NCBI GenBank assembly: GCA_041659505.1
Contig: JBAZYF010000003.1
Location: forward strand, 86,026-150,025
From: Parcubacteria group bacterium
Lineage (GTDB): Bacteria > Patescibacteriota > Minisyncoccia > Moranbacterales > UBA2206
Direction: 5' to 3'
DNA: 64,000 bases
How positions within the stretch are numbered: the first letter of the stretch is position 1; every line of letters begins with the position of its first letter. Positions 12,649 through 29,860 of the stretch are shown piece by piece. Made by a program: the position numbers and the translations under genes. The notes under the pieces were generated by a model that ran no database searches, was not told the DNA's origin, and saw nothing but the letters and a program-made list of their open reading frames with translations.

Positions 12649-14613
12649 CTACTTGTATTCCTCCAAAAATTCCAGCATTTCCTTTTGTTCGGCGAGGGCT
12701 TCTTTGGCTGATTTTTCGACAGATGCGAGCATACCCTCAAAAGCCACTTTGTTTTCCACCGAGGTGACGCCGCTCAAATGCTTTCGTGCTTTCTCGGTGT
12801 GAAAAAGTGCCTTATTGCATACTTCCTGGATTACCTCATACCAAAATATTTTTTGCAGTTCCTTGATCTCTTTCTTCAAATCCAATTCTTTGAGGCTCTT
12901 GTTCCCGCCTCGTCTTGAGTATTTTTTCAAAACCTCAATTACCGTCGGGCTTAGTTGTCCTTTTTTGAGATCATCTTCCCAATCATGCGCGTCGTCATTA
13001 AGCTGTCTGGCGATTATATAATTTTCAAAGAATGCGAGTAAGTTTTTTATTTCTGAAGACTCAATGTTTTTTGTGTGAAAATACAACACAGCTATTGATC
13101 CCAACGCGTGACCGATGGAACGATCGGCGAGTCTTTCTAATGTTCCAAAATCAGGCAATCGGTCGGGAATCGTCAATCGTGATCCGGCTACCTGCGCTCG
13201 GCAATTAGTTGTCTCCCAGGCATTAGCAGAATCAATCCTGTCCATTGTGTTTTTGAAAAATTGTAAAAATTTTTCATCCTTCGCAAAAGTTTCGCAGTAT
13301 ATTAATGTTAATTCGCGAAGGCAGATATTGGCCAAGGAAAGAAACCTCGGGTCACCTTCGCCATCGAAAAAATCATCATAAATCGTATAGGCTATCCAGC
13401 CATAGAGACTGGCCACTTCCAGTTCAATGAGAATATTCTCATCCACAGCCTTATTGCTCCCCAGCGATTTTTGAAAATAATAGGGCAAGAGGGTTACTCG
13501 ATTTGCGTTGTCTCCTTTCAATATCCTTTTCCTGACAGCCAGAAAATTCTCAGTCAGTTCAGAATTGAAATTAGAAAATCTTTGATCTGTTAGCTTGATT
13601 ATCCTTTTATGTATCCTTTCCTGCTCCCTGTCTATTTTTATTTCTTTTTTATTCTTGACCGACTCATCTTCAGTCAAAAATTTTCCCACAGTTTCCAGAC
13701 AGAATGCCGTTGTAAGTTCCGCGCTACCGGAATAATGTTTTTGTTTCTTTTCTATTTTTTCAACCACGAAGGGATAGGCTTTCCACTCTCCATTTATTTT
13801 GTTTTTCAAGATAGATCCCAGACTTTCCTCCAGTTTTTCCTTATTGTGCCCTAGGTTAATAAGCGCGCTGACTGCCAGTGCGGTTTCCAAGGGATTACCC
13901 CAAGAATGATTCTTGTGCCTATTTTCCAAGAGATAGGAAATTATTTTGTCTTTCTTTTTTCCTTTGTACCAGCGAGAGATAAAATAAATGATGGCGTATG
14001 GGGATTGATAATAGGGAGAGCTGTATCTTCCAGAATCAATCGCTTCTTCCGCGAGAGCAGTCAGACTTTCCAGGGTCACGTCCTGAAGCGAAAGAAAAAA
14101 CGCAATGTTGCTGTTGACCGCCAAATCAATGTCTTTCCAGTCTTTGCCTGCATTCTGTGGAGTGAGCCACGTATAATACGGCCCGCCTTCTTTGCTCTCG
14201 CAAAATGTGAGAAGATTGATGACTTTAGCGATGGCTCTTATGGAGATAATTTTTTGATTATGCTTGGTCAGTGCGACCATAGCGCAACAAGTATCATCCA
14301 AATCGTCCGGGTACGGCGTATCTTTGCTTTCCGGCGAATTTCTTTTCCAATAATTCCACGACCAAAAATCGCTTTTTTGGCTCATCAGAAATTTTGCAGT
14401 TTTGCTTCTTACATTATCAAGCGCCTTTGAACTGGGAAGATTATTGAGACTCGCTAAAATTAAGCACGTGGGAAATGCGGATTGGTTTTCCCTGGATGCA
14501 TTGAAATCTTTTGAAGTTGAAACAAGATTGGAAAAACTTCCGTCTTTTTTTTGCCTTTGATCTAAATAATCAATACTCGCCTTTATCGTTTTGTCTATAT
14601 AGCTATGGTTCAT
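12649..14613 (-). CDS. terpene-synthase-like protein: N-terminal SHC-like class II (alpha/alpha toroid, DxDDT) region plus C-terminal class I (DDxxD) domain
   Basis: The ORF track extends to 14841 through an R-rich junk N-terminus overlapping the histidine kinase gene. A start at ATG 14613 (MNHSYIDKT...) is more plausible. Motifs: PYPDDLDDTCCAMVAL (compare SHC PYYPDVDDTAVV); QW-like repeats (DGSFSN, EGGPYYTW, NHSWGNPLETALAVSAL); C-terminal IYDDFFDGEGD and NDDAHDWED. Confidence 0.5.
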   Translation of the reverse strand: MNHSYIDKTIKASIDYLDQRQKKDGSFSNLVSTSKDFNASRENQSAFPTCLILASLNNLPSSKALDNVRSKTAKFLMSQKSDFWSWNYWKRNSPESKDTPYPDDLDDTCCAMVALTKHNQKIISIRAIAKVINLLTFCESKEGGPYYTWLTPQNAGKDWKDIDLAVNSNIAFFLSLQDVTLESLTALAEEAIDSGRYSSPYYQSPYAIIYFISRWYKGKKKDKIISYLLENRHKNHSWGNPLETALAVSALINLGHNKEKLEESLGSILKNKINGEWKAYPFVVEKIEKKQKHYSGSAELTTAFCLETVGKFLTEDESVKNKKEIKIDREQERIHKRIIKLTDQRFSNFNSELTENFLAVRKRILKGDNANRVTLLPYYFQKSLGSNKAVDENILIELEVASLYGWIAYTIYDDFFDGEGDPRFLSLANICLRELTLIYCETFAKDEKFLQFFKNTMDRIDSANAWETTNCRAQVAGSRLTIPDRLPDFGTLERLADRSIGHALGSIAVLYFHTKNIESSEIKNLLAFFENYIIARQLNDDAHDWEDDLKKGQLSPTVIEVLKKYSRRGGNKSLKELDLKKEIKELQKIFWYEVIQEVCNKALFHTEKARKHLSGVTSVENKVAFEGMLASVEKSAKEALAEQKEMLEFLEEYK

Positions 14614-16081
14614 TTCTAATTGGAAATTCAATAATAAATTTGCTTCCTTGCCCCCAGATGCTTTCAACCTTGATTGTTCCGCCAAAATCTTCCTCGACCG
14701 TGTTTTTTGCGGTTGCCAGTCCAATCCCCGCTCCCTTTTGCGGACCCTTGGTGGTAAAAAACGGATCAAATATCTTATTGCGGATTTCTTCCGAAATCCC
14801 GCCTGCCCGATCTTCAATGGAAATAACCGCCTTTTCGCCACGCTTTTCCAACCCTATCTTTATTTCTTTCCCCTCTTCATTGCTCATTTCATATGCGTCC
14901 AAGGCGTTGAGTATGATATTGGTTACCACATGATTGAATCTGACCGCGTTTCCGTAAGTAAGGATATCAAAATCGCCGCATAGCTTGATATCGACTTTTT
15001 CCGTTTTCAGTTTGTATCCCAGTATTTTGGCGACACCGAGTATCTCTTTCTTGGCCGAAAACAACGCTTCTATTTTTTGGTTTTGAAATTGCTTCTTGGC
15101 ATCTTCGATATATTCCGATATAGCCGCTTTATTATCATTGGCCTGCTTCAAATATTCTCTAATCTCAACCAATTCCTTTTCTCCCCCCTCGGTCGCCTGC
15201 TCTATGTTCAGAAAAAGAAAATTGATATGATTTATAAGGTCGTGGAAAAGTCCGGAGGAAATTTTGCCGAACTCGATAAACCTGGAAGCCTGATTGATTT
15301 TCTCCATTTGCGCCTTCTCTAACTCTCTTGTCCTTTCCTGAACTCTCATTTCCAGCATATCCCGTTCTTCTTTGAGTTCCGCTTCGGATTTTCTCGCTCG
15401 TTTTAATGACCTTTCAATTTCACGATTAGAAAGCCAGGAAACGATGGCGATGACCATGAAGGTTACAGAAAATTGTATGGCATCTTTGATGTCTAATGTT
15501 TCAGGCTTCCAATACACATTAGGTTGTGTCACACCGCTAAGTTGAAAATATGTCACCGCTAAAATAGCGAGGGCTGTCGCGAAAGCAATTCCAAATGCGA
15601 AGCGCGAACCAACCAAAACACCTGACGCCACAATAATAAACGCGTAACCGAGGAGCGCCTCTGGAACATCGGCGCCCCAATGAAAAGCGGTGTAGGTGGT
15701 CAAAATGAAAAAGATTGCTATGAAAACATAGGAGACAAAAACGAAAAGTTCCGCTCGGGAAAGTAAATATAAAACAACAAAGCTAAAAAATACAATCAAT
15801 ATATTGCTCAACGGAAAACCTCGATATTCCAAGCCGACCTTATTTGCTTGATATGCAATAATGAGCGAAAAGGTTGCCGACAAAACAATGGCGGACAATA
15901 GTAAAACATTCAGTATGAATTCGTGGCGCCTGGAGTCTTCGCTTTTTGACTTCGGTTTTATTACTTTTTCAAATAACAAAAAGACACTTTTTTGAAAAAC
16001 GCCAGAGTTGGAAATATCCTTTTCTTGTAGATCGTTTTTCATATAGTGTCTTTTTATAAAAAGCCTACGCCATCGGAGCAT
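14603..16081 (-). CDS. sensor histidine kinase (multi-TM sensor, HisKA H-box, HATPase_c)
   Basis: Six to seven predicted TM helices. H-box FHDLINHINFL. G-boxes (GAGIGLATAK, GGTIKVESIWGQGSKF). Confidence 0.75.
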   Translation of the reverse strand: MLRWRRLFIKRHYMKNDLQEKDISNSGVFQKSVFLLFEKVIKPKSKSEDSRRHEFILNVLLLSAIVLSATFSLIIAYQANKVGLEYRGFPLSNILIVFFSFVVLYLLSRAELFVFVSYVFIAIFFILTTYTAFHWGADVPEALLGYAFIIVASGVLVGSRFAFGIAFATALAILAVTYFQLSGVTQPNVYWKPETLDIKDAIQFSVTFMVIAIVSWLSNREIERSLKRARKSEAELKEERDMLEMRVQERTRELEKAQMEKINQASRFIEFGKISSGLFHDLINHINFLFLNIEQATEGGEKELVEIREYLKQANDNKAAISEYIEDAKKQFQNQKIEALFSAKKEILGVAKILGYKLKTEKVDIKLCGDFDILTYGNAVRFNHVVTNIILNALDAYEMSNEEGKEIKIGLEKRGEKAVISIEDRAGGISEEIRNKIFDPFFTTKGPQKGAGIGLATAKNTVEEDFGGTIKVESIWGQGSKFIIEFPIRNEP

Positions 16082-16296
16082 TGCTCCATGGACTGGCGAC
16101 GCTCACCATCGACATGACAAATGCACTCAATGCGACAGCCTTTCTGGCCTTCTTGCTCGTTAGAATTTTTTTGATGATTTTCTTTTTCATTTCTTCGTTA
16201 TTTTAATTTTTTGATAAAAATAATCCCTCGACCAAGAATTACAAATTTAATTGTATCAAAGCGAGGTAAAGAAAAAGTAAAGAAAATATCAAGAAA

Positions 16297-16968
16297 TCAA
16301 TCCAGTTCCATTTTGTAGCCTCTTCCGTTCACAGTTTGAATCAGGCTCACCTTTCTCCCAATGTCGATCTTGGCACGCAAGTTTCTGATATGTGATTTCA
16401 AAGTATTGGAAAAAGTATCTAAATCCATGTCCCACACGTGCTCCATGATATCTCCCTGCGACAGCGTTCGACCCGTATTTTTGGCTAGATATTCCAAGAG
16501 CATAAATTCTTTTCGCGTGAGATTGATGCTTTTCTTTCCTCGTTTCACCTCATGATTTTTGGTGTTCATGATCAAATCCCCGATTTTTATTGTTTCTCTG
16601 ATTGTGGCGTTCGGGCGACGCAGTAGCGCTTTCACTCTGGACAAAAGTTCCCGAAAAGAAAAAGGCTTGGTCAGATAGTCATCCGCACCATTATCCAAAA
16701 GATCCACCTTGGTGGTAATATCCGACAAGGCCGAAAGCATTATGATTTTCACGTCTTTCTTTTTTTCGCGGATCGCCTGGCACACTTCCAGTCCGCTTTT
16801 CTTGGGTAGCACGTTATCAAGCACGATTAAGTCATAATCATTGCAACGGCCGAGGAATGCTCCCTTCTCGCCATCCGTTGCCACGTCAACAGCAAAAAGT
16901 TCCATCTCAAGATTCGACTTGAGAAAGTCGGAAATTTTAGGGTCGTCGTCTATGACTAAAATTCGCAT
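16297..16968 (-). CDS. OmpR-family response regulator (REC + winged-helix)
   Basis: MRILVIDDD...D receiver motifs. C-terminal trans_reg_C pattern (LTRKEFMLLEYLAKNTGRTLSQGDIMEHVW...GRGYKM). Confidence 0.8.
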   Translation of the reverse strand: MRILVIDDDPKISDFLKSNLEMELFAVDVATDGEKGAFLGRCNDYDLIVLDNVLPKKSGLEVCQAIREKKKDVKIIMLSALSDITTKVDLLDNGADDYLTKPFSFRELLSRVKALLRRPNATIRETIKIGDLIMNTKNHEVKRGKKSINLTRKEFMLLEYLAKNTGRTLSQGDIMEHVWDMDLDTFSNTLKSHIRNLRAKIDIGRKVSLIQTVNGRGYKMELD

Positions 16969-17427: not shown

Positions 17428-17655
17428 TCATGAGACTGAGTCCTCTGGAGCATCCTTCATTTTCTTGAGAAAACCGCGCCTGGTGCGCGATGCCACTTTC
17501 CACCAATTCACAATTTGGCCGTTTTTTATTTCAATCACAACCCGCCCGAAGCCTTCCGCTTCAATAGATGCCAAATCCTTGGCGATTTCCGAAAGGAGCA
17601 GATTGCGCTCCCGCTCATTGGATATATTTGTTTTTTGCTTATTTATTCGGTTCAT
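17428..17655 (-). CDS. small DUF2292/YezD-like protein
   Basis: GRVVIEIKNGQIVNW resembles the YezD family core. Last gene of the phage-like block. Confidence 0.3.
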   Translation of the reverse strand: MNRINKQKTNISNERERNLLLSEIAKDLASIEAEGFGRVVIEIKNGQIVNWWKVASRTRRGFLKKMKDAPEDSVS

Positions 17656-19201
17656 ATTTCAGTCTTTTTTTAAATGCGATATGCCAGTACAGGAGAGCAT
17701 GCCAAGCGTGATCAGTGCCAGTAGTCGATTGCCATTCCCGTTTTTCCTGGCCAAACTGATTAGTAACCGTCCGGGCATACATTGTTTGAGCGTGGTCTAT
17801 TAGCATGCGAAAGGTCGTGTCGTTCGACTGCATGGCAAATTTGATCTCTCCGCGCCTCAGGGATGAGATTGTGTCGTCAATGATGCGATTGCGTGAGGTA
17901 AGCACTTTCACTTCATCCTCGAAAGGTTTTCTGTCTTCCTCCCTCTCGTCATTCCAGCGAATTACCTCGAGCATTTTCGGGTCGTCTTTATAGAAATTCA
18001 CATAGACGCGATAGGGAAATTTGCGAGCCAAACGCAGGGCTTCTTCCGTCCATGGCATAGCGTCAATAACGCATACCCGCACGTCATAGAATTGAATCAG
18101 TTCTGCCATATATTCCCAGCGAGTTTTGTTCGGCCGGTCTTTGATTTTACCAATCCAAAATATTCCTTTGGCATTGCCAATTACGATATGATTCTCATCC
18201 CCGGTATCCGCGCCCATTACGTTCCAGCCGGCTGTTTCGACTTCTTCATTTGTAATATTGCGCAAAAATAGGCTTTGGGGAATTTTCTGATCGGATGCGA
18301 TATAGGGCAAACCGAGAACGAAATTGTAAAAGTATTTTTGGTCTTCGGCATTGGCTTCTTCATCAAGCAGATTAGCCGCACTGCGCCAAGGACACATCAT
18401 TTGACTGATCCAATACCCGCTGATTGCTTCTCCTGGATATCGAGCTTCCCATCGTCCAGTATCACAGACCCAGCGTGAGGTGATTTCTTTTCGGCATTTC
18501 TGGCAGACATAGATTCTTCGTTCGCGGTCAACATTCTTCTCCCAGTCCATATGCTGTTCATAGTTACAATTAGGACAATTAAACCGCCAGTGTTTTTGGT
18601 CGGATTGCCCGAACAACCGATCAATTCCCACGTCCGGAACAGTCGGGGTTGAAAAATAATGCTGACTTCTGATTTTCGAAAATCCCATACGGCTTGTGTA
18701 ATCGCGAATTACCTCCGGCTTGGATTTGTCGAGCTCGTCGTGAATGTTTCTGTCTGAAGTAAGCATAATAGCTTCCTTTTCCGTGTATGTTCCTTTGAAA
18801 AACAAGAATGATTTTCCGATCTGTTTTTGCTCCACCGAATCCACGTCTTTTCCACTCACTCCTTCCAGCACACAGGAATTCACTTTCACGATTCTGTTTA
18901 CCTTGCTCTTTACGAATTCGGCCACATCGTCCACCGTCGGAAGTGTATAAATTTGATTGATGCCCCAAAAACGCGCGGCGTGGATCGCTCGCAAAATCTC
19001 CATCGTGCTAGCTCCAATCTGCGAACCTTTACGGATAACTTGCATCGGAGTACGATCGGAATAAATATCCAGCATAAAGCGGTGATCCGAAAATTCAATT
19101 ACATCGCCACTTTCGCTTTTTATTCCATTCTGCTTGATCCAATACAGAATGCTACTTTTTTGTTTTTCCTTTTCGTCCATAAAAAGCTTTGATAGTTTCA
19201 T
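17639..19201 (-). CDS. phage terminase large subunit (GpA-like)
   Basis: N-terminal ATPase region (KGSQIGAST). Internal CPNCNYEQ....CQKCRK zinc ribbon. C-terminal nuclease-like acidic residues. Preceded by a small-terminase-like gene. Confidence 0.6.
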   Translation of the reverse strand: MKLSKLFMDEKEKQKSSILYWIKQNGIKSESGDVIEFSDHRFMLDIYSDRTPMQVIRKGSQIGASTMEILRAIHAARFWGINQIYTLPTVDDVAEFVKSKVNRIVKVNSCVLEGVSGKDVDSVEQKQIGKSFLFFKGTYTEKEAIMLTSDRNIHDELDKSKPEVIRDYTSRMGFSKIRSQHYFSTPTVPDVGIDRLFGQSDQKHWRFNCPNCNYEQHMDWEKNVDRERRIYVCQKCRKEITSRWVCDTGRWEARYPGEAISGYWISQMMCPWRSAANLLDEEANAEDQKYFYNFVLGLPYIASDQKIPQSLFLRNITNEEVETAGWNVMGADTGDENHIVIGNAKGIFWIGKIKDRPNKTRWEYMAELIQFYDVRVCVIDAMPWTEEALRLARKFPYRVYVNFYKDDPKMLEVIRWNDEREEDRKPFEDEVKVLTSRNRIIDDTISSLRRGEIKFAMQSNDTTFRMLIDHAQTMYARTVTNQFGQEKREWQSTTGTDHAWHALLYWHIAFKKRLKYEPNK

Positions 19202-19715
19202 CTATTGCCAATCCCAACTCCTCTTCTTCCGCTGTCGGTGGTTTTTGATCTTCTTCCTTGATGCTCAATTCGTGCTTACCGAGAGATTCTCCCATCTCCG
19301 TGCGAAACATTTCCCATAGTTTCTTAATCTCGTCGACTGTCGCTCCTTCTCCTTTTTTCATCTGCTTTTTTAGAGCCTGGATTTTTTCCCAAAAAACCTC
19401 ACCGATAACAAACACTTTTTTCTGTTTGATTTCCTGCGCTTTCTTTCGAAGACTCTCAAGATCTTCAGTGAGTTTGAGGTCTTTCCGTTCAACCCAGCGA
19501 TATTTTTTTGACCAAGTTTCTATCGTTGTATCACTTGGTTTCTTGCCAAGCCTTTCGGCAAATTCCACCCAAGTTTCACCCAAGCTTTGCCCAACCTTAT
19601 CCCATAGCCCCAATGTCTTTCGAATGCTTCCCGCTTCGCAATATAAAAGCCAAGCGGTATATTGAGATTCCGTTTCGCTTGGCATTTTTGAAGTTGTAAG
19701 TACGGGCTTTGCCAT
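19152..19715 (-). CDS. putative terminase small subunit / HTH DNA-binding protein
   Basis: Position immediately 5' of the large terminase gene with a 50-nt overlap. Basic helical protein. Confidence 0.35.
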   Translation of the reverse strand: MAKPVLTTSKMPSETESQYTAWLLYCEAGSIRKTLGLWDKVGQSLGETWVEFAERLGKKPSDTTIETWSKKYRWVERKDLKLTEDLESLRKKAQEIKQKKVFVIGEVFWEKIQALKKQMKKGEGATVDEIKKLWEMFRTEMGESLGKHELSIKEEDQKPPTAEEEELGLAIDETIKAFYGRKGKTKK

Positions 19716-19739
19716 ATGGCTTGATCGCTTATCATTTAT

Positions 19740-21077
19740 CTATCCCTTGAGCTTTACTTTTTCCCAGCGCTTTCGAATCACATCGCACCAACAAGGGTCA
19801 AGCTCCAGTAGATAGCAAGTGCGCCCTAATTTATGCGCAGCGAAAAGCGTACTACCTGATCCGCCGAAAAAATCGACAATATTATTTCCGATTCGACTGG
19901 AGTTTTTGATGGCTCGCATAATCAGCCACTCCGGTTTTTCAGTTGGATGAGTCATTTTAGTAACCGCCTTTCTGGGCATATCCCATACGTCGCTTTCATT
20001 ATTGTCACCATAGAAAAAATGACGCTCTCCTTTTTTCCAGCCATACATAATCGGCTGAGCTTTCGTTTTACTCTTGCTTCGCTTGGCTTTCATGATTTGC
20101 TCGTATTGCTTCTTATAATCGCCCCAACCGATAGAGAAAGACGGTTTGACCCAAACGATCGTCGATGAAAATTCAAAGCCTGAATTGAGCATTTCGTAAT
20201 ACCACAGCGAATAACTAGTATAGCCGGTGCAGACATAAATCACTGCGCCGGGCTTCATGATTTCACAATAATTCGCGAATACTTTCTCGCTGAACGCTTC
20301 GAAATCTTCTTGGCTCTGCTGATCTCCCAAAATTCTGCCCTGCTCAGTCGGAAATTTTCCTTTCTTTTCATGACTGACATGAGCCACATTATATGGCGGG
20401 TCAGTAAAAACCATATCGGCTTTGAGCGTACCAAGCAATTTTTTAATATCTTCCATTTTAGTCGCATCTCCGCACATAAGCCGATGCCTTCCGAGTTCAT
20501 AAATTTCGCCGTATTTTGATTTCGGCTTTTTTATTTCCGCATATTCTTCTTCGACAGTTTTTTCTTCTTCATCATCCGGTTCGTCTAGTATTTGACTGTC
20601 CAAGAGATTGCTGATTTCCACTTCATTAAACCCAGTGACGCTCAGATCAAAGTCCGAGTGGTTGAGTTCTGTCATCAGTTCAGCCAGCTTTTCATCATTC
20701 CAATCGCGCCTTTGAGCAATTTTGTTCAAAGCAAGACTCAGGGCTTTTTCTTCTTTTTCGGACAAATCCACCAAATCCACGTTTTCTTTTGGTACTGTCT
20801 CCCAGCCCAATTCCTGTAAAACCATAACGGTCATATTGCCACCAATAATAATGCCCGCACGGCTCTTATTGGTATTTACCGTTATGAGCCCGCGAAGCCC
20901 AAAGCGCTCAATCGATTTTTTTAGCGCATCAATGTCTTCCTGCTTAACTTCTCGCGGATTGTAAGACGGGTGCTTGAGTTCTGAAATTTTTACTATTTGC
21001 GTAGTTTTAACCATAGGTACATGAAAAATATTTTTATACGAATTAATATCATCTGCCATTTTGGAAGCGCGGGACAT
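19740..21077 (-). CDS. ParB-like nuclease domain fused to an N6/N4 DNA methyltransferase (phage-type orphan MTase)
   Basis: N-terminal ParB/Srx-like region (KISELKHPSYNPRE). MTase motif IV VFTDPPYN. C-terminal SAM-binding FFGGSGST. Confidence 0.7.
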   Translation of the reverse strand: MSRASKMADDINSYKNIFHVPMVKTTQIVKISELKHPSYNPREVKQEDIDALKKSIERFGLRGLITVNTNKSRAGIIIGGNMTVMVLQELGWETVPKENVDLVDLSEKEEKALSLALNKIAQRRDWNDEKLAELMTELNHSDFDLSVTGFNEVEISNLLDSQILDEPDDEEEKTVEEEYAEIKKPKSKYGEIYELGRHRLMCGDATKMEDIKKLLGTLKADMVFTDPPYNVAHVSHEKKGKFPTEQGRILGDQQSQEDFEAFSEKVFANYCEIMKPGAVIYVCTGYTSYSLWYYEMLNSGFEFSSTIVWVKPSFSIGWGDYKKQYEQIMKAKRSKSKTKAQPIMYGWKKGERHFFYGDNNESDVWDMPRKAVTKMTHPTEKPEWLIMRAIKNSSRIGNNIVDFFGGSGSTLFAAHKLGRTCYLLELDPCWCDVIRKRWEKVKLKG

Positions 21078-21155
21078 ACTTGCGTCGTTTCCTCTCGCTG
21101 AATCATTTCGATATGCTGTTTTCGCTCTTTGGCCACTGGAAGATTTTTTTGAGAA

Positions 21156-21419
21156 CTATTGTTTGACACGTACATATTCTTCTTCAATTAATTTTTTTGT
21201 TGTTAAGATGGCGTGTTCGACTTTTTCGATTCGCTCCTGATACTCGGCCACAATTTCCTTTTTAGTTTTTTGACCGTCCAGATTAAACGGGGTCAGGCGC
21301 GGTATCACCACGTCATTGTCATCGCGATCTTCGAGATTACGAATGGCAATCTCTAGTCGCAGGTTTTCTTCTATCAGTGAGTCATGGATTGACTCTAATA
21401 TTTCCAGTCTGGTTTTCAT
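21156..21419 (-). CDS. hypothetical coiled-coil protein
   Basis: ORF only. Confidence 0.3.
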   Translation of the reverse strand: MKTRLEILESIHDSLIEENLRLEIAIRNLEDRDDNDVVIPRLTPFNLDGQKTKKEIVAEYQERIEKVEHAILTTKKLIEEEYVRVKQ

Positions 21420-21484
21420 ATGATTTGATATGACGGATTTTGTTTCTTTGTCCCGCCCTTAGCGACAAGGCCGCCGTTATTTTA

Positions 21485-21766
21485 TTAAAGTTCGACAGAT
21501 GTCGGTCTGACACTACCCGGAAGATCCGGCACGTCAAGCCGAACACTGACCCGAGCCTTGCTTCTGCGACCGGCGAGATTCATGATTGAACGGATCGCTT
21601 TGATAACGCGTCCGTCTTTTCCAATCACAATTCCCGCATCACCTTCACCAAGCTTCACCGAGAGGAGCACGCCCATCTCATCGACATGCCTCAATACCTC
21701 GACCTGTTCGGGATACGTAACGATGGCCTGTAAAATCTCCTTCAATAAATTTTGATCTTGTTCCAT
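21485..21766 (-). CDS. KH-domain RNA-binding protein (YlqC/UPF0109-like)
   Basis: GxxG loop region VIGKDGRVIKAIRSI typical of a type II KH domain. Locally high GC. Confidence 0.55.
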   Translation of the reverse strand: MEQDQNLLKEILQAIVTYPEQVEVLRHVDEMGVLLSVKLGEGDAGIVIGKDGRVIKAIRSIMNLAGRRSKARVSVRLDVPDLPGSVRPTSVEL

Positions 21767-21877
21767 AGATTTTATTTTTCTTTAGATAATTTTTTAGTTT
21801 CTAACCACCTGTCGACCGCAGGTAGCAATGTGGATTAGCCACACCTGAAGAGTCAGTCTTTTTTACTCCTGAACGCC

Positions 21878-23128
21878 TCAGGTACTGCTAATAATTTTAT
21901 TGGTTTTTTTTATTGCTCTCATAATTTCAATCGCCACCTGCGGAACAATTGCGTTGCCAAGAGCCTTTAGTCTTTCTACTCGATGTCGTGATTTGGTGAG
22001 TTCAAATTCGTCCAGTTTTGCGGGTAGCCCATCATCCACTCCACAAAGTTCGGTTGCAACTTCAAGCCAGGAGAGTTCCCAACCTTCTCTCTCAAATTTG
22101 AACACCCGCCTTTGATTGCTTGGTTGCTTCTTTCTTCCGGTTTTCTGATATCGCTCCGCATATCCATCACGCTTGGAGCTGGAAGCATCGCCAACACGTC
22201 TTTCACCTTCACTCCGAATCTCACGCCCTTTCGATTTACCCTGCTCCATCGTCCGTTTTTCAGTTCCGCATTCTTTACCGGAGCACCTTCCTTTTCGCTT
22301 ACTCTCGGTGTCGGAAGCAAAGCGTTTATCGCTTCCTGAACTTGTTCTCCCATATTGTGCTTTCCTCTGTCCCTCATGGCCGCTCGGCTGTCTTGCGCTT
22401 TCGGTGTTCCTAGCATCTTCGGCCACAGGTGTGTTTTTCTCAAATCGCTCGCTCCTCCGGCCAAAAGCTGTTCGTAAAGATTGCCGGGCGGAACTGTGTT
22501 GCGCCCTGTTTTGTTTCTGCTCACCTGACGTTTCAGATAGCTTTCCGCGCTTTTTCTTTCGATTGGTCTTATCGCTGAGGGCGTGAGCAACAAACCAGAT
22601 CCGGTCTCTTCGGTGCGGAGCGTTGACGGCGACAGCTGGAATAATAAACGGCTGGATTTCGTAGCCGGAATTTTCCAAGTCAAGGCACACTTGTTCGAAT
22701 ACCATTCCGTTTTGCATAGTAAATAATCCGCGCACATTTTCAGCAATAACCCAGCGCGGTTTTGTAAGGCGGATGACGCGAAGCATTTCCGGCCAGAGAT
22801 AACGGTCATCATCTGTGCCTCGCCTTTTTCCGGCCTGGGAGAAGGGTTGACAAGGAAAGCCTCCCGTGAGGATGTCGACTTTAAATAGTTGTCTATTCCC
22901 ACTTGCTTGCTGTTTTTTCCTCTGTTTTTGTAGTCCGTTCCAGTTGGCGTCGGCAATAGACTTGATTTCTTTGATGTCCCCATATATTTTTGAATTTGGA
23001 AATCTTAGTTTTAATAATTTTTGGCAGTAGCGATCATTGTCGCAAAAAATATGTTCCGCGTTCGGCCAAATTTCTTCCACTGCCAGAGCAAAGCCACCAA
23101 TGCCGGAAAATAGATCTAAATGTCTCAT
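21878..23128 (-). pseudogene. DNA cytosine-5 methyltransferase with two apparent frame changes (pseudogene, recoding or assembly indels)
   Basis: Frame A from 23128 has motifs I (FSGIGGF), IV (GGFPCQPFS), VI (ENV) and VIII (RRDRIWFVAHA). After an A5 run near 22541-22552 the MTase-like sequence continues in another frame (ORF 21976..22983: LGTPKAQD..., LLPTPRVSE..., FVEWMMGYPQNWT). The terminal motif X (ALGNAIVPQVA) is back in frame A after an A4 run near 21990. Confidence 0.55.
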
Positions 23129-23140
23129 GTGCTTTTATTT

Positions 23141-24109
23141 TTATTTCCGCGAAACACTAAGCGATTCCTTCAACTTATTGAGCGCTTCGACCATTGCGCT
23201 CATTTTTTCAGCTTCGTTCTCGGTCTTTGAATTTTTCGCAGTGCCATACTTCATAGCAATCTGTTCCAGGTTTCCATAAAAACCATATTCGCGGTAACTG
23301 GCTTTTATAAAATCCCTGAGCACCTCCTTGCACAGCGCGGCGCCAATTGATGGCGACATGGATGGCTTGTTCTGCAAAAACCAGATGAATTCAAGTTCCA
23401 ATTGAAATTCAGTCAAATGCGAAAGAGCGTGCTTGAGTAAATTGCCGTCTTTAAATTTCACGAGCGTCGGCTTAGTATGTCGGATTGCTTGGCACAGCTG
23501 ACTAAACTTCCCAATAAAATACCGCGTTGGAATTATTTTTTTATTATCCCCAACAAGTTTTCTTGTCCGATAGGACTTCTTTGTAAACTCGGTTTCTTTT
23601 GTAGCCCGAAATTTTTTCGCCCGAAGATTTTTCGGGGGTTGTGCAAATTTTCTAACCCTCGAACTTTTTTCGGGGGTAGTTAAGTCAGGTATTTGTTGGG
23701 GGTGCTTAAGGCTAAGGCGATAGAAAATTTTTCCTCCGCATTTCATCCGTTTTTGCGATGAATCCAGAAGCTCGCCCAATTCGTCGTGAGCTTGGATTAT
23801 TCTCAACTCATCCACTAATCGCTTAAGCGAGTTTTGAATGGATCTGTCGCTTCGGTTTATCTTTTTCATCAGTTGACCCTGACTAATCCAATCTTTCTCC
23901 TTGCGCCGTTTTGTTTCCATGTCTTCAATCCATCCCAATGTTTGATCGGCAACAACGAGAAGAATTCTCAGCTCTACGTCACTCAAAAGTGGCATCCACA
24001 CACGGATGATGAGATGCGGAATTTGAGTCGTATTGGGAATTATTGATTGTATTTCGTAGTCCATATTTTTAGTGAAAGAGAAACAGCCACTGTCCTGACA
24101 CTTTCGCAA
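23141..24109 (-). CDS. putative replication initiator / replisome-organizer-like winged-helix protein
   Basis: N-terminal VWMPLLSDVELRILLVVADQTLGW resembles RepA/phage replisome organizer N-terminal domains. Weak. Confidence 0.3.
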   Translation of the reverse strand: MRKCQDSGCFSFTKNMDYEIQSIIPNTTQIPHLIIRVWMPLLSDVELRILLVVADQTLGWIEDMETKRRKEKDWISQGQLMKKINRSDRSIQNSLKRLVDELRIIQAHDELGELLDSSQKRMKCGGKIFYRLSLKHPQQIPDLTTPEKSSRVRKFAQPPKNLRAKKFRATKETEFTKKSYRTRKLVGDNKKIIPTRYFIGKFSQLCQAIRHTKPTLVKFKDGNLLKHALSHLTEFQLELEFIWFLQNKPSMSPSIGAALCKEVLRDFIKASYREYGFYGNLEQIAMKYGTAKNSKTENEAEKMSAMVEALNKLKESLSVSRK

Positions 24110-25741: not shown

Positions 25742-28381
25742 CTACTTCCCACAACACTTCTTATATTTCTTGCCACTCCCACAAGGACACGGGTCATTCC
25801 GCCCAATCTTGTCATCATTGATAATCGGTTTTTGCTTGGGTGCTTCGCGTGTTTCGCCGTCTTGGATTTCTCGGGCGGAAGCAAATGATTCTGACTCTTC
25901 GGCTCCGCTGAAGTTGAGATTTTTTTCTGGAATTGCCGATTGCGTTTGTTGCACTGGAGCTACGGAAACACGGAAAATTGTGTGAACGATGGTTTGTTTG
26001 ATATTTTCCATCAAATAGGAAAACATCGTAAACGCTTCTCTTTTATACTCCACCAATGGATCGCGCTGGCCATAACCGCGAAGACCAATACCTTCTCGCA
26101 GATAATCAATCTCATCAAGATGACTCATCCACATCACATCAATCGTCTGAAGTGCGATACTCTTTTCAACCATCCGCATATTCGCCTCTCCTACTTCTTG
26201 TTCTTTGTGATTATAGACCTCTTTCGCTACGCCCGACAGATATTCCGTCGCCTCACCAATCAGCTCGGCTGTATTCTTATTGTGATTTTCCACAATTTCT
26301 TTGAGCTTGACTTGCGCTACTGGCGGAAGCACAATCATCGCCTGGATATTTTCTGCAATTTTTTCCATTTCAAGATTTCCATCTTCTGTCGTGAGACTTG
26401 CCGAAACCGCCCGCTCAATTTCTTCCCGGATATTATCAATAATCTCCGGCTTGATATTATTTGCCTCAAGAACCGCGCGTCTTTTTTTATAAAGAATTTC
26501 ACGTTGCTTATTCATCACATCATCATAATCCAAGATGTGTTTTCTAATGTCAAAATTAAAGCCTTCAATTTTTGACTGAGCATTTTCAATCGTACGAGAA
26601 ATGATCGGATTTTGGATCGGCTGATCTTCCGGCAATCCAAGTTTTGTCATCAGGTTGATCAAATTATCGCCGCCGAAACGCCGCATCAACTCATCTTCCA
26701 GAGAAACAAAAAATTGAGACATTCCAGGATCACCTTGGCGTCCTGCGCGACCGCGAAGCTGATTGTCGATGCGTCGCGCTTCGTGCCGCTCTGTGCCTAA
26801 AATAAACAGTCCCCCGAGTTCACGCGCCCCTTCGCCCAGCTTGATATCCGTTCCGCGTCCAGCCATATTGGTCGCGATTGTCACTGATCCGACGTGCCCG
26901 GCTTTCGCCACAATCTGCGCTTCCCGTTCATGGTTTTTGGCATTCAACACTTCATGCTCGACGCCGGATTTCATAAGGAGCATGCTGAGATATTCCGATT
27001 TCTCAACCGCAATCGTTCCCACGAGAATCGGTTGACCAAGTTTATTCACCTCCCTAATTTTTTCTACGATGGCGTTAAACTTCCCTTTTTCTGATTTATA
27101 AACAACATCAGGAATATCCTTTCTGATAGCCGGTTTGTTGGTCGGGATTTCCGTCACGTCCATTTTATACACCTTAAAAAATTCTTCCGCTGAAGTGGAA
27201 GCTGTTCCGGTCATGCCGGAAATTTTTTGGTACATCCGAAAATAGTTTTGGAAAGTAATAGTCGCAAGAGTCTTTGATTCTTTCTGCACGCGCACGTGCT
27301 CTTTCGCTTCGATTGCCTGATGCAACCCTTCACTATAGCGTCGTCCCGGCATCAAGCGCCCCGTGAAGTCATCAACAATAATCACTTCACCGTCTTTCAC
27401 CACATAGTCGCGATCCAGTTGAAAAATCACTTGCGCTTTCAAAGCCTGCTCCAAATGATGCACATAAGTAATTTTTCCTGCTTCATAGATATTTCCCACA
27501 TTAAGCCATGACTCAATCTTAGCAATTCCACTTTCTGTAATGGTCACTGATTTGGTTTTTTCTTCCACGGCATAATCCTCTTCTCTTTTCAGTTTTGGCA
27601 CAAGCATCGCAAATTGCTCATAGAGTTTTGTCGATTCGCTGTCCGCGGCGGAAATGATCAGCGGAGTCCGCGCTTCATCGATGAGGATCGAATCCACTTC
27701 ATCCACAATCACATAATTCAAGTTGCGCTGAACCATATGCTCGAGCGTCGGCACCATATTGTCCCGCAAGTAATCAAAACCAAATTCGTTATTCGTACCA
27801 TAAGTAATGTCGGCCGCATAGGCTTCACGCCGGGAGATTGGCGCGAGATTTTCCATCTCAACACTAACCTCGTCATCATCTTCCACTTTCGGAGTATAGA
27901 TATATGAAGCGTCATGGATGATACAAGCCGTGGAAATTCCCAGAAAATGCAAAATGCCTCCCATCCAATTACAGTCGCGTTTGGCCAGATAATCATTCAC
28001 CGTCACGAGATGCACGCCTTTGCCGGTGAGCGCATTGAGGTACATCGGCAGAAGTGAAGTATGGGTCTTTCCCTCACCGGTTTTCATCTCGGCAATCTTG
28101 CCACTATGAAGCACAATACCGCCCATCATTTGAACATCGAACAGTCTTTTTCCATCCACCCGCTTCACCGTTTCCCGCATAACCGCAAAAACTTCCGGCA
28201 GAAGTTCGTCGAGTGTTTCTTTTTCAGTAATCCGCTTTTTAAACTCAACTGTTTTCGCCCGCAACTGATCATCAGACAATTTAAGCATCTGCTCCTCAAT
28301 CGCATTGATTTTTTCGATGATCGGTTTCAGCTTCCCAATTTCCCTCTCATTCGAACCGAATATTTTCTTTAGAATTGACAT
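25742..28381 (-). CDS. secA: preprotein translocase ATPase SecA
   Basis: Full-length SecA with DEAD-like motor motifs and C-terminal zinc-binding [14 protein letters not shown]. Confidence 0.95.
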
Positions 28382-28648: not shown

Positions 28649-29860
28649 TTAACCAATCTTCATCTTCCTAAACTCCCTCTTTCCCGCTTTCAGAATTTTT
28701 CCATCAAAACTTTTGTCCACTTTTAACTGCCAATCACGGATTACTTCATTATCCGCTTTTATTCCACCTTGGTCAACCTTGCGCCTAGCATCCGCCTTAC
28801 TGGTCGCTAACTTATTTTTCACTAAAACGTCAATCAGTGACTCTCCTGCAGAAACCTTAATTTCCAAAATTTCTATCGGCAATTCTTTTTTAGAAAAAAC
28901 TTGCTCGAAATGTGCTTCGGCCTTTTTGGCCGATTCTTCTCCTTTAATTATTTTCACAATCTCATAGGCCATCTTTTTCTTGAAAATCATCGGATTCTCA
29001 CCTTTTTCCATCGCCAGTTTCATTTTCTCAATTTCTTTTATCGGCACAGCCGTCAAAAGCTCAAAGCCGGACAAAATATGCGCATCAGAATAGGACATCG
29101 CTTTGCCATACATATCTTCTGGGCTATCGGCCAGATTAATTCCATTGCCTTTGGTTTTGCTCATCGTCCTGCCATCTGGCGCGTCCATCATCTTGTTCGT
29201 GCGTACAAATTTTTCCTTGCCGAGATAACTCTTGATCAGATCGCGCCCGACAAGCATATTGAAAGTTTGGTCGGTTCCGCCGATTTCCATATCCACTTCC
29301 ATCGCTACGCCATCATAACCTTGCATCAATGGATAGATAAATTCATGCAAACGAATTGGATCACCCTCTTTGATCCGACGTTCAAACATATCACGTTCGA
29401 GCATCCTCTGCACTGTGATAGTCGACATCAATTTGATCAGATCGTTCAGTTTTAGTTTTGAAAGCCATTTATAATTCCGCTCAAAACGCACCGGATTTTC
29501 TCCGCCAAAATCAATCAATTGTGAAGCCTGTTTTTTCCAACCGGACATATTTTTTTCAATTTCCTCGTCTGTCAGCATTTTTCTGGTCGTATCTTTGTCT
29601 GGATCTCCGACTTTGGCCGTGTAATCTCCAATAAGAAAAACTACTTCGTGACCTAATTTTTGCAAGATGCCCAGAGCGCGAATGCCCATCGCATGCCCAA
29701 CATGCAGATATGGCCCGGTCGGATCAAAACCCTGATAAATTTTCAATCTTTCACCTGACATCAGTTTTTTGCGAAAAGCTTCCTTGGAAGGATAAATCGC
29801 CTCCACTCCCCGCTCTAAAAATTCATCAATCAGTTTTTTGTCCTTTAATACTTTTGGCAT
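28649..29860 (-). CDS. tyrS: tyrosyl-tRNA synthetase
   Basis: HIGH motif (LHVGHAMG). KMSKS-like TMSKTKG. C-terminal S4 domain. Confidence 0.9.
   Translation of the reverse strand: MPKVLKDKKLIDEFLERGVEAIYPSKEAFRKKLMSGERLKIYQGFDPTGPYLHVGHAMGIRALGILQKLGHEVVFLIGDYTAKVGDPDKDTTRKMLTDEEIEKNMSGWKKQASQLIDFGGENPVRFERNYKWLSKLKLNDLIKLMSTITVQRMLERDMFERRIKEGDPIRLHEFIYPLMQGYDGVAMEVDMEIGGTDQTFNMLVGRDLIKSYLGKEKFVRTNKMMDAPDGRTMSKTKGNGINLADSPEDMYGKAMSYSDAHILSGFELLTAVPIKEIEKMKLAMEKGENPMIFKKKMAYEIVKIIKGEESAKKAEAHFEQVFSKKELPIEILEIKVSAGESLIDVLVKNKLATSKADARRKVDQGGIKADNEVIRDWQLKVDKSFDGKILKAGKREFRKMKIG

What the first reader, a model, noticed from the sequence alone, without database searches (positions are those of the whole stretch)
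21878..23128. C5-cytosine MTase whose reading frame switches twice at short A-runs within a 500-nt polypurine tract
Motifs I-VIII are in one frame (23128 to ~22560). TRD-like sequence with repeated hPTP modules (WPKMLGTPKAQD, LLPTPRVSEKEG, MLPAPSVMD) and the motif IX-like FVEWMMGYPQNWT are in a second frame. Motif X (SRHRVERLKALGNAIVPQVA) returns to the first frame. The junctions coincide with aagaaaaag (near 22545) and gcaaaactgg (near 21990). The minus strand here is extremely purine-rich, so all six frames are open, which generated five overlapping spurious ORFs. Possibilities: homopolymer indel errors, a decayed gene, or slippage-based phase variation or recoding of a phage MTase.
Basis: seen in the sequence. 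Interest (0 to 1): 0.55.

Follow-up and report, generated by a model that had tools for sequence, protein, structure and literature searches.

The report
Methylase gene with nested second gene
The frame switch is real but is not an error or ribosome slippage: this phage-type DNA cytosine methylase gene carries a second conserved gene inside it in another reading frame, probably encoding the enzyme's DNA-recognition half, an arrangement known from one E. coli enzyme and found here in every one of about 160 related loci examined across many phages and bacteria.

Summary
On the minus strand, f1 (21878-23128, 416 aa) is one uninterrupted ORF carrying C5-methyltransferase motifs I-VIII and X. f2 (21976-22983, 335 aa, frame +1) lies wholly inside it and carries the LPTP modules and a motif IX-like FVEWMMGYPxNWT.

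This is not an indel error, gene decay or slippage. All 81 viral loci and all 80 bacterial genome loci examined have the same nested pair. The third frame averages about 21 stops.

Both frames are under selection. In f1's unconserved middle, f1 has 0 stops against 312 expected. f1's synonymous sites are frozen where f2 overlaps motifs VII-VIII. Substitution periodicity switches f1→f2→f1. f2 has its own ATG, preceded by Shine-Dalgarno sequences in Firmicute loci. The A-runs are not conserved slippery sites.

AlphaFold predicts f1 residues 187-377 to be disordered, so f1 alone has no recognition domain.

Best reading: two polypeptides. Alpha is the catalytic large domain (I-VIII, linker, X). Beta is the small domain (recognition modules plus IX).

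The closest precedent is M.EcoHK31I, whose beta chain lies inside the alpha gene in another frame. Here beta is far larger and overlaps motifs IV-VIII, and the family is widespread and mostly unannotated. I rate it a new variant of a known kind.

The parts
21878..23128 (-). f1 (alpha): continuous 416-aa ORF carrying C5-methyltransferase motifs I-VIII, an unconserved linker, and motif X
   Evidence: PF00145 residues 1-408, E 5e-48; phrog_363, E 8e-65; aligns to M.HhaI 12-65 and 72-170; 100% identical to an NCBI protein named DNA (cytosine-5-)-methyltransferase from a Parcubacteria group MAG.
21976..22983 (-). f2 (beta): 335-aa ORF in frame +1, wholly nested in f1, carrying an N-terminal region, LPTP modules and a motif IX-like segment
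   Evidence: phrog_1008, E 1e-24; 245 homologs; 16,712 cluster representatives at E<=1e-10; nested copy in 80 of 80 genome loci found through f1.
23093..23116 (-). Motif I (DLFSGIGG) of f1, outside the overlap
   Evidence: synonymous codons saturated here, relative entropy 0.8-1.0.
22933..22959 (-). N-terminal LLPTPTGTD module of f2, encoded in the unconserved insert of f1 between motifs III and IV
   Evidence: [LIMF]PTP occurs 2.07 times per f2 ORF and 0 times in the f1 frame; 48 of 111 loci have one upstream of the SGRKC anchor. f1 conservation here is 0.02-0.05 and AlphaFold pLDDT is below 50 for f1 residues 65-81.
22838..22864 (-). Motif IV (GGFPCQPFS, catalytic Cys) of f1; f2 reads through it with weak constraint
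22573..22707 (-). Dual-constraint zone 1: f1 motifs VII-VIII (…QPFIIPAVAVNAPHRRDRIWFVA) and f2 EWYSNKCALTWK…RLLFQLSPSTLRTEETGSGLLLTPSA on the same bases
   Evidence: frozen synonymous codons: V147 GTG 57/58, P160 CCG 48/48, I162 ATT 49/49, A165 GCT 67/68; f2 synonymous sites also frozen here; differences split between f1 positions 1 and 3, position 2 at 0.06.
22082..22572 (-). Central stretch: f2 recognition-type modules under protein-level selection (WPKMLGTPKAQD 22390-22425, LLPTPRVSEKEG 22285-22320, MLPAPSVMD 22162-22188). In f1 it is an unconserved linker that is kept open and predicted disordered.
   Evidence: f1 conservation 0.02-0.13; f2 synonymous sites free; 0 f1 stops against 312 expected; pLDDT 27-45; 65-85% of differences at f2 position 3.
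22009..22081 (-). Dual-constraint zone 2: f2 GLKLQPNFVEWMMGYPQNWT (motif IX-like) over f1 WELSWLEVATELCGVDDGLPAKLD
   Evidence: D365 and D366 GAT 56/56 and 61/61, G367 GGG 66/67; F320 TTT 50/53; Pfam match reaches profile position 279 with the f2 segment against 292 without.
21976..21978 (-). f2 stop codon TAG, embedded in the f1 codons for R-V-E at the start of the motif X block
   Evidence: same position in the closest relatives.
21932..21973 (-). Motif X (RLKALGNAIVPQVA) of f1, downstream of the f2 stop
   Evidence: (helix 380-415, pLDDT 74-87).
22550..22558 (-). A-run aagaaaaag flagged as junction 1; it encodes f2 E-R-K and f1 K-K-K and is not a frameshift site
   Evidence: conserved only in the closest clade, absent in L097-L100, L001, L005, L018 and L082, with no frame change in any relative.
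22012..22021 (-). gcaaaactgg flagged as junction 2; it encodes f2 P-Q-N-W and is not a frameshift site
   Evidence: relatives have CAG, TTG or TCA and AAT here, which are synonymous or conservative changes in f2.

Best explanation
The locus is a nested pair of same-strand overlapping genes that most likely encode the two chains of one orphan, phage-type DNA cytosine-5 methyltransferase.

Alpha (f1, 416 aa) is translated straight through. It supplies the catalytic large domain: motifs I-VIII and the motif X helix, joined by about 190 residues of unconserved, disordered linker. The only requirement on that linker is that it contains no stop codon.

Beta (f2, 335 aa) starts at its own ATG at 22983, in the +1 frame. 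It supplies what alpha lacks between motifs VIII and X: the LPTP-type recognition modules and a motif IX-like segment. It also has an N-terminal part that may hold the two chains together.

Shown here: both frames are open and under purifying selection across about 160 divergent loci, and f2 has independent start signals.

Inferred: the two chains assemble into a heterodimer, beta determines target recognition, and the enzyme protects phage or island DNA from restriction.
For: - The same nested arrangement occurs in all 81 viral loci (80 from IMG/VR plus one JGI contig) and all 80 bacterial genome loci, the latter retrieved through f1 alone.
- Over 156 non-redundant loci, f1 is open across the f2 span in 152. 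The third sense frame averages 20.7 stops.
- f1 is kept open where it is not conserved as protein: 0 stops against 312 expected from synonymous shuffles of f2 codons (78 viral loci). The third frame shows 654 against 619.
- f2 is a real coding frame. Its conserved residues use all synonymous codons in the centre. f1's synonymous sites are frozen where f2 overlaps motifs VII-VIII and at EWMMG. Substitution periodicity switches frames.
- f2 has its own initiation signals. An ATG lies upstream of the conserved SGRKC block in 116 of 117 loci. Shine-Dalgarno sequences precede it in Firmicute loci: AAAGGAGGTG, 7 nt, ATG in L156; GGGAGGTG, 10 nt, ATG in Paenibacillus phage Tadhana.
- Alpha has no recognition domain of its own. 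Residues 187-377 are unconserved and have pLDDT 27-45, while the core and the motif X helix reach 75-91.
- In variant loci (L085, P0363) f1 stops right after motif VIII and the f2-type ORF carries motif X in frame. The f2-type protein is therefore part of the enzyme there.
- Experimental precedent: M.EcoHK31I needs an alpha and a beta chain, beta lies entirely within alpha in another frame, and beta's N-terminus mediates association (PMC2836561, PMC3404938).
Against: - No expression, proteomic or activity data exist for this family.
- Pfam does not recognise motif IX in f2. The hybrid IX+X segment scores only 16.1 bits against 13.1, and in-frame IX-X proteins give no hit.
- AlphaFold on f2 alone is poor (pLDDT 59) and has no structural neighbours.
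- f1 alone matches PF00145 end to end, and the three-frame hybrid does not score better (159.6 against 164.6 bits).
- f2 between its ATG and about residue 90 is only weakly constrained in the closest clade.
- No Shine-Dalgarno sequence precedes either gene in the window itself.
Confidence: 0.65

Rival explanations
1. Programmed double ribosomal frameshift. Ribosomes read f1 through motif VIII, shift +1 into f2 for the recognition domain and motif IX, then shift -1 back into f1 for motif X, making one canonical chain.
For: The conceptual hybrid reads like a canonical enzyme (…FVEWMMGYPQNWTNLN / LTKSRHRVERLKALGNAIVPQVA). Purifying selection follows the order f1, f2, f1. In L085 a single +1 shift at the end of f1 would give a canonical chain.
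Against: - f1 is kept stop-free through the whole skipped stretch (0 against 312 expected), which a frameshift product would not require.
- There is no conserved slippery site at either junction, and the A-runs vary or are absent.
- f2 is conserved about 40 codons upstream of junction 1, over bases that also encode motif VIII.
- f2 has its own ATG, Shine-Dalgarno sequences and an N-terminal LPTP module.
- The hybrid gains nothing against Pfam.
Confidence: 0.07
2. f2 is a genuine overprinted gene whose product has nothing to do with methylation (for example another phage function). f1 alone is the methyltransferase, with a degenerate or absent recognition domain.
For: f1 alone matches PF00145 from position 1 to 324. 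Pfam and PDB searches see nothing in f2. The f2 model is poor.
Against: - f1 has no conserved or structured segment between motifs VIII and X, so it lacks any evident means of reading DNA sequence.
- f2 ends with a motif IX-like segment exactly where IX should lie.
- In variant loci the f2-type ORF carries motif X in frame.
- f2 accompanies f1 in 160 of 160 loci.
- phrog_1008 members are annotated as DNA methyltransferase.
Confidence: 0.15
3. Sequencing or assembly indels in homopolymers, or a decaying pseudogene.
For: Short A-runs lie near the places where the conserved frame changes.
Against: f1 is an intact ORF. The same frame relationship holds in about 160 independent assemblies from many phyla and phages, including isolate genomes and GenBank phages. 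Both frames show purifying selection.
Confidence: 0.01
4. Beta is made not from its own start but by a +1 frameshift out of f1 somewhere before motif VII. This would give an alpha-N/beta fusion alongside full-length alpha, in the manner of dnaX.
For: f2 is only weakly constrained between its ATG and about residue 90 in the closest clade. P0012 and P0008 are database proteins with motifs I-III fused in frame to f2-type sequence.
Against: - The ATG and Shine-Dalgarno sequences sit at the head of f2.
- N-terminal LPTP modules lie upstream of motif IV in 48 of 111 loci, including the window.
- f2 is stop-free across the motif IV-VIII overlap (0 against 204 expected).
- No conserved shift site is seen.
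Confidence: 0.05

Closest known systems
M.EcoHK31I (E. coli, YGGCCR), the naturally heterodimeric C5-methyltransferase (Lee, Kam & Shaw 1995, as described in PMC2836561 and PMC3404938)
   Same: [quoted passage not shown] Both chains are needed for activity. Beta's N-terminus mediates association with alpha.
   Different: In M.EcoHK31I alpha is reported to contain the recognition domain and beta is small. Here beta is 250-400 aa, carries the conserved LPTP modules, and overlaps motifs IV-VIII, while alpha's VIII-X segment is unconserved and predicted disordered. Here the enzyme is an orphan in a phage-like island rather than part of a restriction-modification pair. I could not test sequence homology to M.EcoHK31I because no related sequence was found in the E. 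coli or plasmid collections.
M.AquI (alpha: motifs I-VIII plus part of the variable region; beta: the rest plus IX-X; PMC3404938)
   Same: A natural two-chain C5-methyltransferase split in the variable region. The variant loci L085 and P0363 have the same division, with f1 ending after motif VIII and the f2-type ORF carrying IX and X.
   Different: In the window motif X stays on alpha and beta is fully nested. In the variants the f2-type ORF still overlaps about 370 nt of the alpha gene, over motifs IV-VIII.
Monomeric C5-methyltransferases such as M.HhaI (PF00145)
   Same: f1 has motifs I, IV, VI, VIII and X and aligns to M.HhaI residues 12-65 and 72-170.
   Different: The recognition domain and motif IX are not in the same chain. 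The corresponding stretch of f1 is a disordered spacer.
Annotated nested pair in Paenibacillus larvae phages (for example Tadhana genes 54 and 55, MG727700) and the PHROG family phrog_1008
   Same: Same family and same nesting, at +1 frame. Both ORFs are annotated as DNA-cytosine methyltransferase.
   Different: The overlap is not discussed in the genome paper (PMC6070908). Most other records annotate f1 only, for example Bacteroides phage BS-TP4 gp43 and the window's own MAG.
Programmed frameshift genes (dnaX, prfB, IS transposases)
   Same: Coding information lies in two frames of one locus.
   Different: There is no conserved slippery site. The zero frame does not terminate and is selected to stay open. 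The second frame has its own start.

Membership tests
C5 cytosine DNA methyltransferase (PF00145), for f1 | Motif I FxGxG (AdoMet binding) | tested here: met
   DLFSGIGG at f1 residues 5-12. Pfam E 5e-48.
C5 cytosine DNA methyltransferase (PF00145), for f1 | Motif IV PCQ catalytic cysteine, motif VI ENV, motif VIII R-x-R | tested here: met
   GGFPCQPFS 89-97, ENVRGL 130-135, PHRRDRIWFVA 171-181. Aligned to M.HhaI residues 72-170.
C5 cytosine DNA methyltransferase (PF00145), for f1 | Motif X GN(A/S)xxxP | tested here: met
   RLKALGNAIVPQVA 386-399, within a helix of pLDDT 74-87.
C5 cytosine DNA methyltransferase (PF00145), for f1 | Recognition domain and motif IX in the same chain between motifs VIII and X | tested here: not met
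   f1 residues 187-377 have column identity 0.02-0.13 through most of the stretch and pLDDT 27-45. The conserved modules and the IX-like motif lie in frame +1.
M.EcoHK31I-type nested heterodimeric C5 methyltransferase | Beta ORF lies entirely inside the alpha gene in another reading frame | tested here: met
   f2 21976-22983 lies inside f1 21878-23128 at frame +1. The same holds in about 160 loci.
M.EcoHK31I-type nested heterodimeric C5 methyltransferase | Alpha carries motifs I-VIII and X | tested here: met
M.EcoHK31I-type nested heterodimeric C5 methyltransferase | Beta carries motif IX | tested here: inconclusive
   FVEWMMGYPQNWT fits the (E)xxxLMGFPxxW pattern, ends 8 codons before the f2 stop, and lies just upstream of motif X. 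Adding it extends the Pfam match from profile position 292 to 279, but only from 13.1 to 16.1 bits. Pfam sees nothing in f2 alone.
M.EcoHK31I-type nested heterodimeric C5 methyltransferase | Alpha contains the target recognition domain | tested here: not met
   Alpha's VIII-X segment is unconserved and predicted disordered.
M.EcoHK31I-type nested heterodimeric C5 methyltransferase | Both polypeptides are made and both are required for methylation | not testable with these tools
   Indirect support only: selection on both frames and start signals for f2.
M.EcoHK31I-type nested heterodimeric C5 methyltransferase | Sequence homology to M.EcoHK31I alpha and beta | not tested
There was no match in E. 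coli genomes at DNA level and no E. coli hit in plasmids.
Programmed ribosomal frameshift gene | Conserved slippery sequence at the junction | tested here: not met
   the A-runs are clade-specific or vary synonymously, and no heptamer is shared across the family.
Programmed ribosomal frameshift gene | The zero frame need not stay open beyond the shift site | tested here: not met
   f1 has 0 stops against 312 expected (viral loci) and 284 expected (genome loci) in the stretch that would be skipped.
Same-strand overlapping (dual-coding) gene pair | Both frames open in divergent homologs while the control frame is not | tested here: met
   Over 156 loci: f2 open in all, f1 open in 152, third frame averaging 20.7 stops with a minimum of 9.
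Same-strand overlapping (dual-coding) gene pair | Protein-level purifying selection in each frame | tested here: met
   Codon-usage freezing and freedom patterns and the periodicity switch.
Same-strand overlapping (dual-coding) gene pair | Independent translation start for the nested gene | tested here: met
   ATG upstream of the conserved block in 116 of 117 loci. Shine-Dalgarno sequences lie 7-12 nt upstream in 5 of 6 Firmicute-type loci. This cannot be assessed in the window, whose host shows no Shine-Dalgarno sequence at either start.

The most novel reading that the evidence does not exclude
A very large, cross-phylum family of phage-borne orphan C5 methyltransferases is built as an obligate alpha/beta heterodimer. 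Its specificity subunit is a 250-400-codon gene hidden in the +1 frame of the catalytic gene. It is modular, with 0-5 strict LPTP motifs per f2 ORF in the loci examined here and about a dozen LPTP-like modules in longer database proteins. It is almost never annotated. This would be among the longest and most widely conserved same-strand nested gene pairs in prokaryotic viruses. The catalytic chain's 190-residue linker would exist only as the shadow of the other gene. Motif X would have moved between chains during evolution, since type 1 has it on alpha and type 2 on beta.
Probability: 0.5. Interest if true: 0.72.

Novelty: new variant of a known kind. Interest (0 to 1): 0.6.

Why it matters
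- Annotation. Thousands of database entries named 'DNA cytosine methyltransferase' would describe only half an enzyme. The recognition half is usually uncalled: the window's own f2 is absent from a collection of 5.8 billion protein clusters. Specificity predictions and REBASE-type assignments for this family would then be made on the wrong chain.
- Overlapping genes. This would be a large, natural and statistically clean case of long same-strand dual coding. It has zones where both frames are constrained and zones where one frame is merely kept open, which makes it useful for testing methods that detect overlapping genes.
- Enzyme architecture. It would show that the M.EcoHK31I curiosity is a widespread design, with variants that place motif X on either chain. 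That bears on how split methyltransferases assemble and on the design of split, targetable methyltransferases.
- Testability. It can be tested directly in culturable systems: Paenibacillus larvae phages, and Prevotella, Sphingobacterium and Paenibacillus isolates.

Tried and rejected
- Pfam on f2, on in-frame IX-X proteins and on short segments gave no usable hit. Pfam on the three-frame hybrid gave no gain over f1 (159.6 against 164.6 bits).
- A PDB sequence search with the f2 profile found nothing.
- AlphaFold on f2 with a 55-sequence alignment was poor (pLDDT 59, pTM 0.28). Foldseek of that model against the PDB returned only noise.
- A search with a hybrid f2-IX + f1-X peptide, looking for close single-frame relatives, matched almost only one part or the other. 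It led instead to the type-2 split loci L084 and L085.
- I tried to link the family to M.EcoHK31I. The original paper is not held, the follow-up paper has no supplement, the plasmid search gave no E. coli hit, and there was no DNA match in E. coli genomes.
- My stop-avoidance test conditioned on an open f1 and was circular for f1. I replaced it, where loci and region limits are defined from f2 only.
- Literature searches for a description of this phage family as overlapping genes found none.
- I considered and rejected:
  - conserved slippery sites at the A-runs;
  - real antisense genes;
  - the internal conserved Met of f2 (…ARxMTAxSGRKC) as the true start. Its apparent Shine-Dalgarno sequences abut the ATG with 0-3 nt spacing and are f1 coding sequence, whereas the upstream ATG has well-spaced Shine-Dalgarno sequences and is followed by LPTP modules.
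Full report
**What is in the window.**
- On the minus strand, ORF f1 (21878-23128, 416 aa) is uninterrupted. It matches Pfam PF00145 over residues 1-408 (E 5e-48) and phrog_363 (E 8e-65).
- f1 aligns to M.HhaI residues 12-65 and 72-170. It carries motifs I, IV, VI, VIII and X (coordinates).
- A second ORF, f2 (21976-22983, 335 aa), lies entirely inside f1 in the +1 frame.
- f2 also starts far upstream of the supposed junction. It has another LLPTPTGTD module at its N-terminus and runs across the bases that encode f1 motifs IV-VIII.
- Pfam sees nothing in f2, but phrog_1008 ('DNA methyltransferase') matches residues 37-328 (E 1e-24).

- The A-runs are at 22550-22558 and 22012-22021.
- The central tract is 64% purine.
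- Only two of the six frames are open there. The third sense frame has 18 stops and the plus-strand frames have 5, 2 and 3.

**f2 is a real, large protein family.**
- A search of 5.8 billion protein clusters gave 245 homologs, many covering about 98% of f2 at 30-45% identity.
- A profile search of 1.84 billion cluster representatives gave 35,660 hits at E<=1e-3 and 16,712 at E<=1e-10.
- The alignment has five conserved blocks:
  - an N-terminal LLPTP module;
  - …MTAxSGRKCxE…;
  - WYSxKCxLTWKxKxTKSxRLLFQLxPSTxRTEExGSGLLxTP;
  - further LPTP modules;
  - GLKLQPxFVEWMMGYPxxWTDL.

**The nesting is universal in the family.**
- Of 81 viral loci retrieved with f2 (80 IMG/VR plus one JGI contig), every one has an f1-type methyltransferase in frame N and the f2-type ORF in frame N+1. 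Both frames show 30-55% amino-acid identity to the window.
- 80 bacterial genome loci were retrieved with f1 alone. They include Patescibacteria (best hit Candidatus Moraniibacteriota, 89%), Prevotella, Sphingobacterium, Alistipes, Paenibacillus, Lachnospiraceae and Leptospira. All 80 have a single stop-free +1 segment inside f1 that matches the f2 profile at E 1e-42 to 1e-111.
- Over 156 non-redundant loci, f1 is open across the f2 span in 152. The third sense frame averages 20.7 stops (minimum 9). The antisense frames average 16.4, 6.1 and 7.6 stops. The plus-strand ORFs listed in the window are therefore by-products.
- This rules out indel error and gene decay.

**Both frames are under selection, in a defined pattern.**
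- Conservation profile:
  - f1 is conserved at motifs I, IV-VIII, a pre-X block (W..W.EVA..LCGVDDGLP..LD) and X. It is not conserved between residues 185 and 350, where column identity is 0.02-0.13.
  - f2 is conserved from about residue 90 to 140, on the same bases as f1 motifs VII-VIII, and again at the LPTP modules and the IX-like block.
- Synonymous codons at conserved f1 residues:
  - Outside the overlap they are saturated (relative entropy 0.8-1.0).
  - Inside it many are frozen: V147 GTG 57/58, P160 CCG 48/48, F161 TTT 53/54, I162 ATT 49/49, A165 GCT 67/68, D365 and D366 GAT 56/56 and 61/61, G367 GGG 66/67.
- Synonymous codons at conserved f2 residues: they are free in the centre (for example L274 uses six codons and T232 four) but frozen where f2 overlaps motifs IV-VIII.
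- Substitution periodicity in the closest clade of 12 sequences:

| Position in f1 gene (nt) | Where differences fall |
|---|---|
| 1-450 | f1 codon position 3 (0.42-0.85) |
| 451-540 | split between f1 positions 1 and 3 (dual constraint) |
| 541-990 (window 22588-22139) | f1 position 1, which is f2 position 3 (0.65-0.85) |
| 1081-1170 | split between f1 positions 1 and 3 (dual constraint) |
| 1171-1251 | f1 position 3 |

**The frame change is not made by the ribosome.**
- The central stretch of f1 is not conserved as protein, yet it is kept open. I defined loci and region limits from f2 only. On that basis 78 viral loci (9,026 codons) have 0 f1 stops against 312 expected from synonymous shuffles of the f2 codons. 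The third frame has 654 against 619. Genome loci give 0 against 284. A double-frameshift product would not need this.
- f2 is conserved about 40 codons upstream of the proposed first junction, on bases that also encode motif VIII. Both frames must therefore be translated there.
- The A-runs are not conserved shift sites. The run aagaaaaag occurs only in the closest clade, where it encodes f2 E-R-K. The sequence caaaac varies as CAG, TTG or TCA and AAT. No relative changes frame at either place.
- f2 has its own start:
  - An ATG lies upstream of the SGRKC block in 116 of 117 loci.
  - [LIMF]PTP modules occur 2.07 times per f2 ORF and never in the f1 frame. In 48 of 111 loci, including the window, one lies upstream of the motif IV overlap.
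  - In Firmicute-type loci the first ATG of f2 follows a Shine-Dalgarno sequence embedded in f1. Examples are AAAGGAGGTG, 7 nt, ATG (L156, Paenibacillus), GGGAGGTG, 10 nt, ATG (phage Tadhana), and GGGAG-type sites in three others.

**What each product would be.**
- AlphaFold on f1 with a 53-sequence alignment folds the catalytic core and the C-terminal motif X helix (pLDDT 75-91). Residues 187-377 score 27-45. Alpha therefore has no recognition domain of its own.
- f2 supplies conserved modules exactly in that interval. It ends with a motif IX-like FVEWMMGYPxNWT, and its stop codon is embedded in the first codons of the motif X block.
- Variant loci support the link to the enzyme. In L085 f1 stops right after motif VIII (176 aa). 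A 335-aa f2-type ORF overlaps it by 368 nt and carries the N-terminal region, the modules, motif IX and motif X in one frame. P0363 (660 aa) is similar.

**Limits on the functional assignment.**
- f2 alone models poorly (pLDDT 59) and has no structural neighbours.
- Pfam barely registers motif IX (16.1 against 13.1 bits).
- The assignment of recognition function to beta is therefore an inference.

**Comparison with known systems.**
- The arrangement matches M.EcoHK31I. [quoted passage not shown] Both chains are needed, silent removal of the beta starts abolishes activity, and beta's N-terminus governs association (PMC2836561; PMC3404938).
- The differences are these:
  - Here beta is 250-400 aa and holds the conserved recognition-type modules.
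  - Alpha's variable region is a disordered spacer, whereas M.EcoHK31I alpha is reported to contain the recognition domain.
  - The overlap extends over motifs IV-VIII.
- I could not test homology to M.EcoHK31I.
- M.AquI (alpha I-VIII, beta IX-X) matches the type-2 variants.
- The pair is already annotated as two nested 'DNA-cytosine methyltransferase' genes in Paenibacillus larvae phages (Tadhana genes 54 and 55), without comment in the genome paper.
- Elsewhere only f1 is annotated: Bacteroides phage BS-TP4 gp43 and the window's own protein, P0179, from a Parcubacteria group MAG. The window's f2 is not in the protein collection (best hit 67%).

**Context.** The gene sits in a small phage-like island: terminase large subunit 17639-19201, ParB-N6/N4 methylase 19740-21077, KH protein 21485-21766, and a replication-O-like protein 23141-24109. 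The island lies in a bacterial chromosome (SecA, TyrRS, AlaRS). No restriction enzyme was identified among the ORFs scanned, so this is most likely an orphan methylase that protects phage DNA (inference).

**Verdict.**
Error, decay and slippage are not the cause.
- The locus is a conserved nested alpha/beta gene pair of the M.EcoHK31I kind, in a much larger, widespread and mostly unannotated form.
- My confidence that both frames are coding is about 0.95. That they are separately translated, about 0.8. That they form a heterodimeric enzyme with beta as the recognition half, about 0.6.

Noticed in passing
L064 2209-2226 and L072 2482-2499 (IMG/VR contigs): In two related but distinct viral contigs, f1 carries a 6-nt insertion TAACTA inside the catalytic PCQ motif (GGFP*LCQPFS), which puts an in-frame TAA there. 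f2 stays open across it (…SLNYANPS…). Possible causes are an inactivated alpha, a split alpha, or stop-codon recoding. It remains unexplained.
   Followed up: partly
L085 1978-3148; L084 1993-3127; protein P0363: Type-2 variant. f1 ends just after motif VIII (171-176 aa). The overlapping +1 ORF (335-348 aa; 660 aa in P0363) carries the modules, motif IX, an FPTQSPV…-type segment and motif X in one frame. Motif X therefore sits on different chains in different family members. The pre-X segment of f1 (SPVCGGDDG…LDGITF) reads like the motif IX DNA shifted by one base, which hints at an origin by duplication plus frameshift.
   Followed up: partly
Proteins P0012 (JGI, 39-kb contig) and P0008 (ENA, 12.6-kb contig): These database proteins begin with methyltransferase motifs I-III (MRHLDLFSGIGG…) and continue in frame into f2-type sequence, skipping motif IV. 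No DNA was available to see how the frames are arranged. P0095 shows the opposite case, with f2-type modules joined in frame to an f1-type C-terminus.
   Followed up: partly
window 19740-21077 (-): A ParB_N + N6_N4_Mtase fusion methylase lies next door, separated only by a KH-domain ORF at 21485-21766. An N6_N4 methylase also follows the nested pair in L001, and a ParB-N6_N4 methylase lies nearby on the P0008 contig. This suggests a recurrent phage methylase cluster.
   Followed up: no
window 17639-24109: There is a phage-like island (terminase gpA ATPase, two methylases, a replication-O-like protein). It sits among housekeeping genes (two-component system 14603-16968, SecA 25742-28381, TyrRS 28649-29860, AlaRS 33316-35256). 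The chromosome is apparently that of a Patescibacteria (Parcubacteria/Moraniibacteriota) bacterium. The island's ends were not mapped.
   Followed up: no
window 21976-22983 (-): The window's own f2 protein is absent from the collection of 5.8 billion protein clusters (best hit 67% identity), whereas f1 is present at 100% with an NCBI name. Gene callers pick one of the two overlapping ORFs. In L001 they picked f2 and dropped f1.
   Followed up: yes
window 12649-14841 (-) and 14603-16081 (-): A 730-aa ORF with no Pfam hit overlaps the 3' end of the histidine-kinase ORF by about 240 nt on the same strand. This may be a start-codon artefact of the ORF listing.
   Followed up: no
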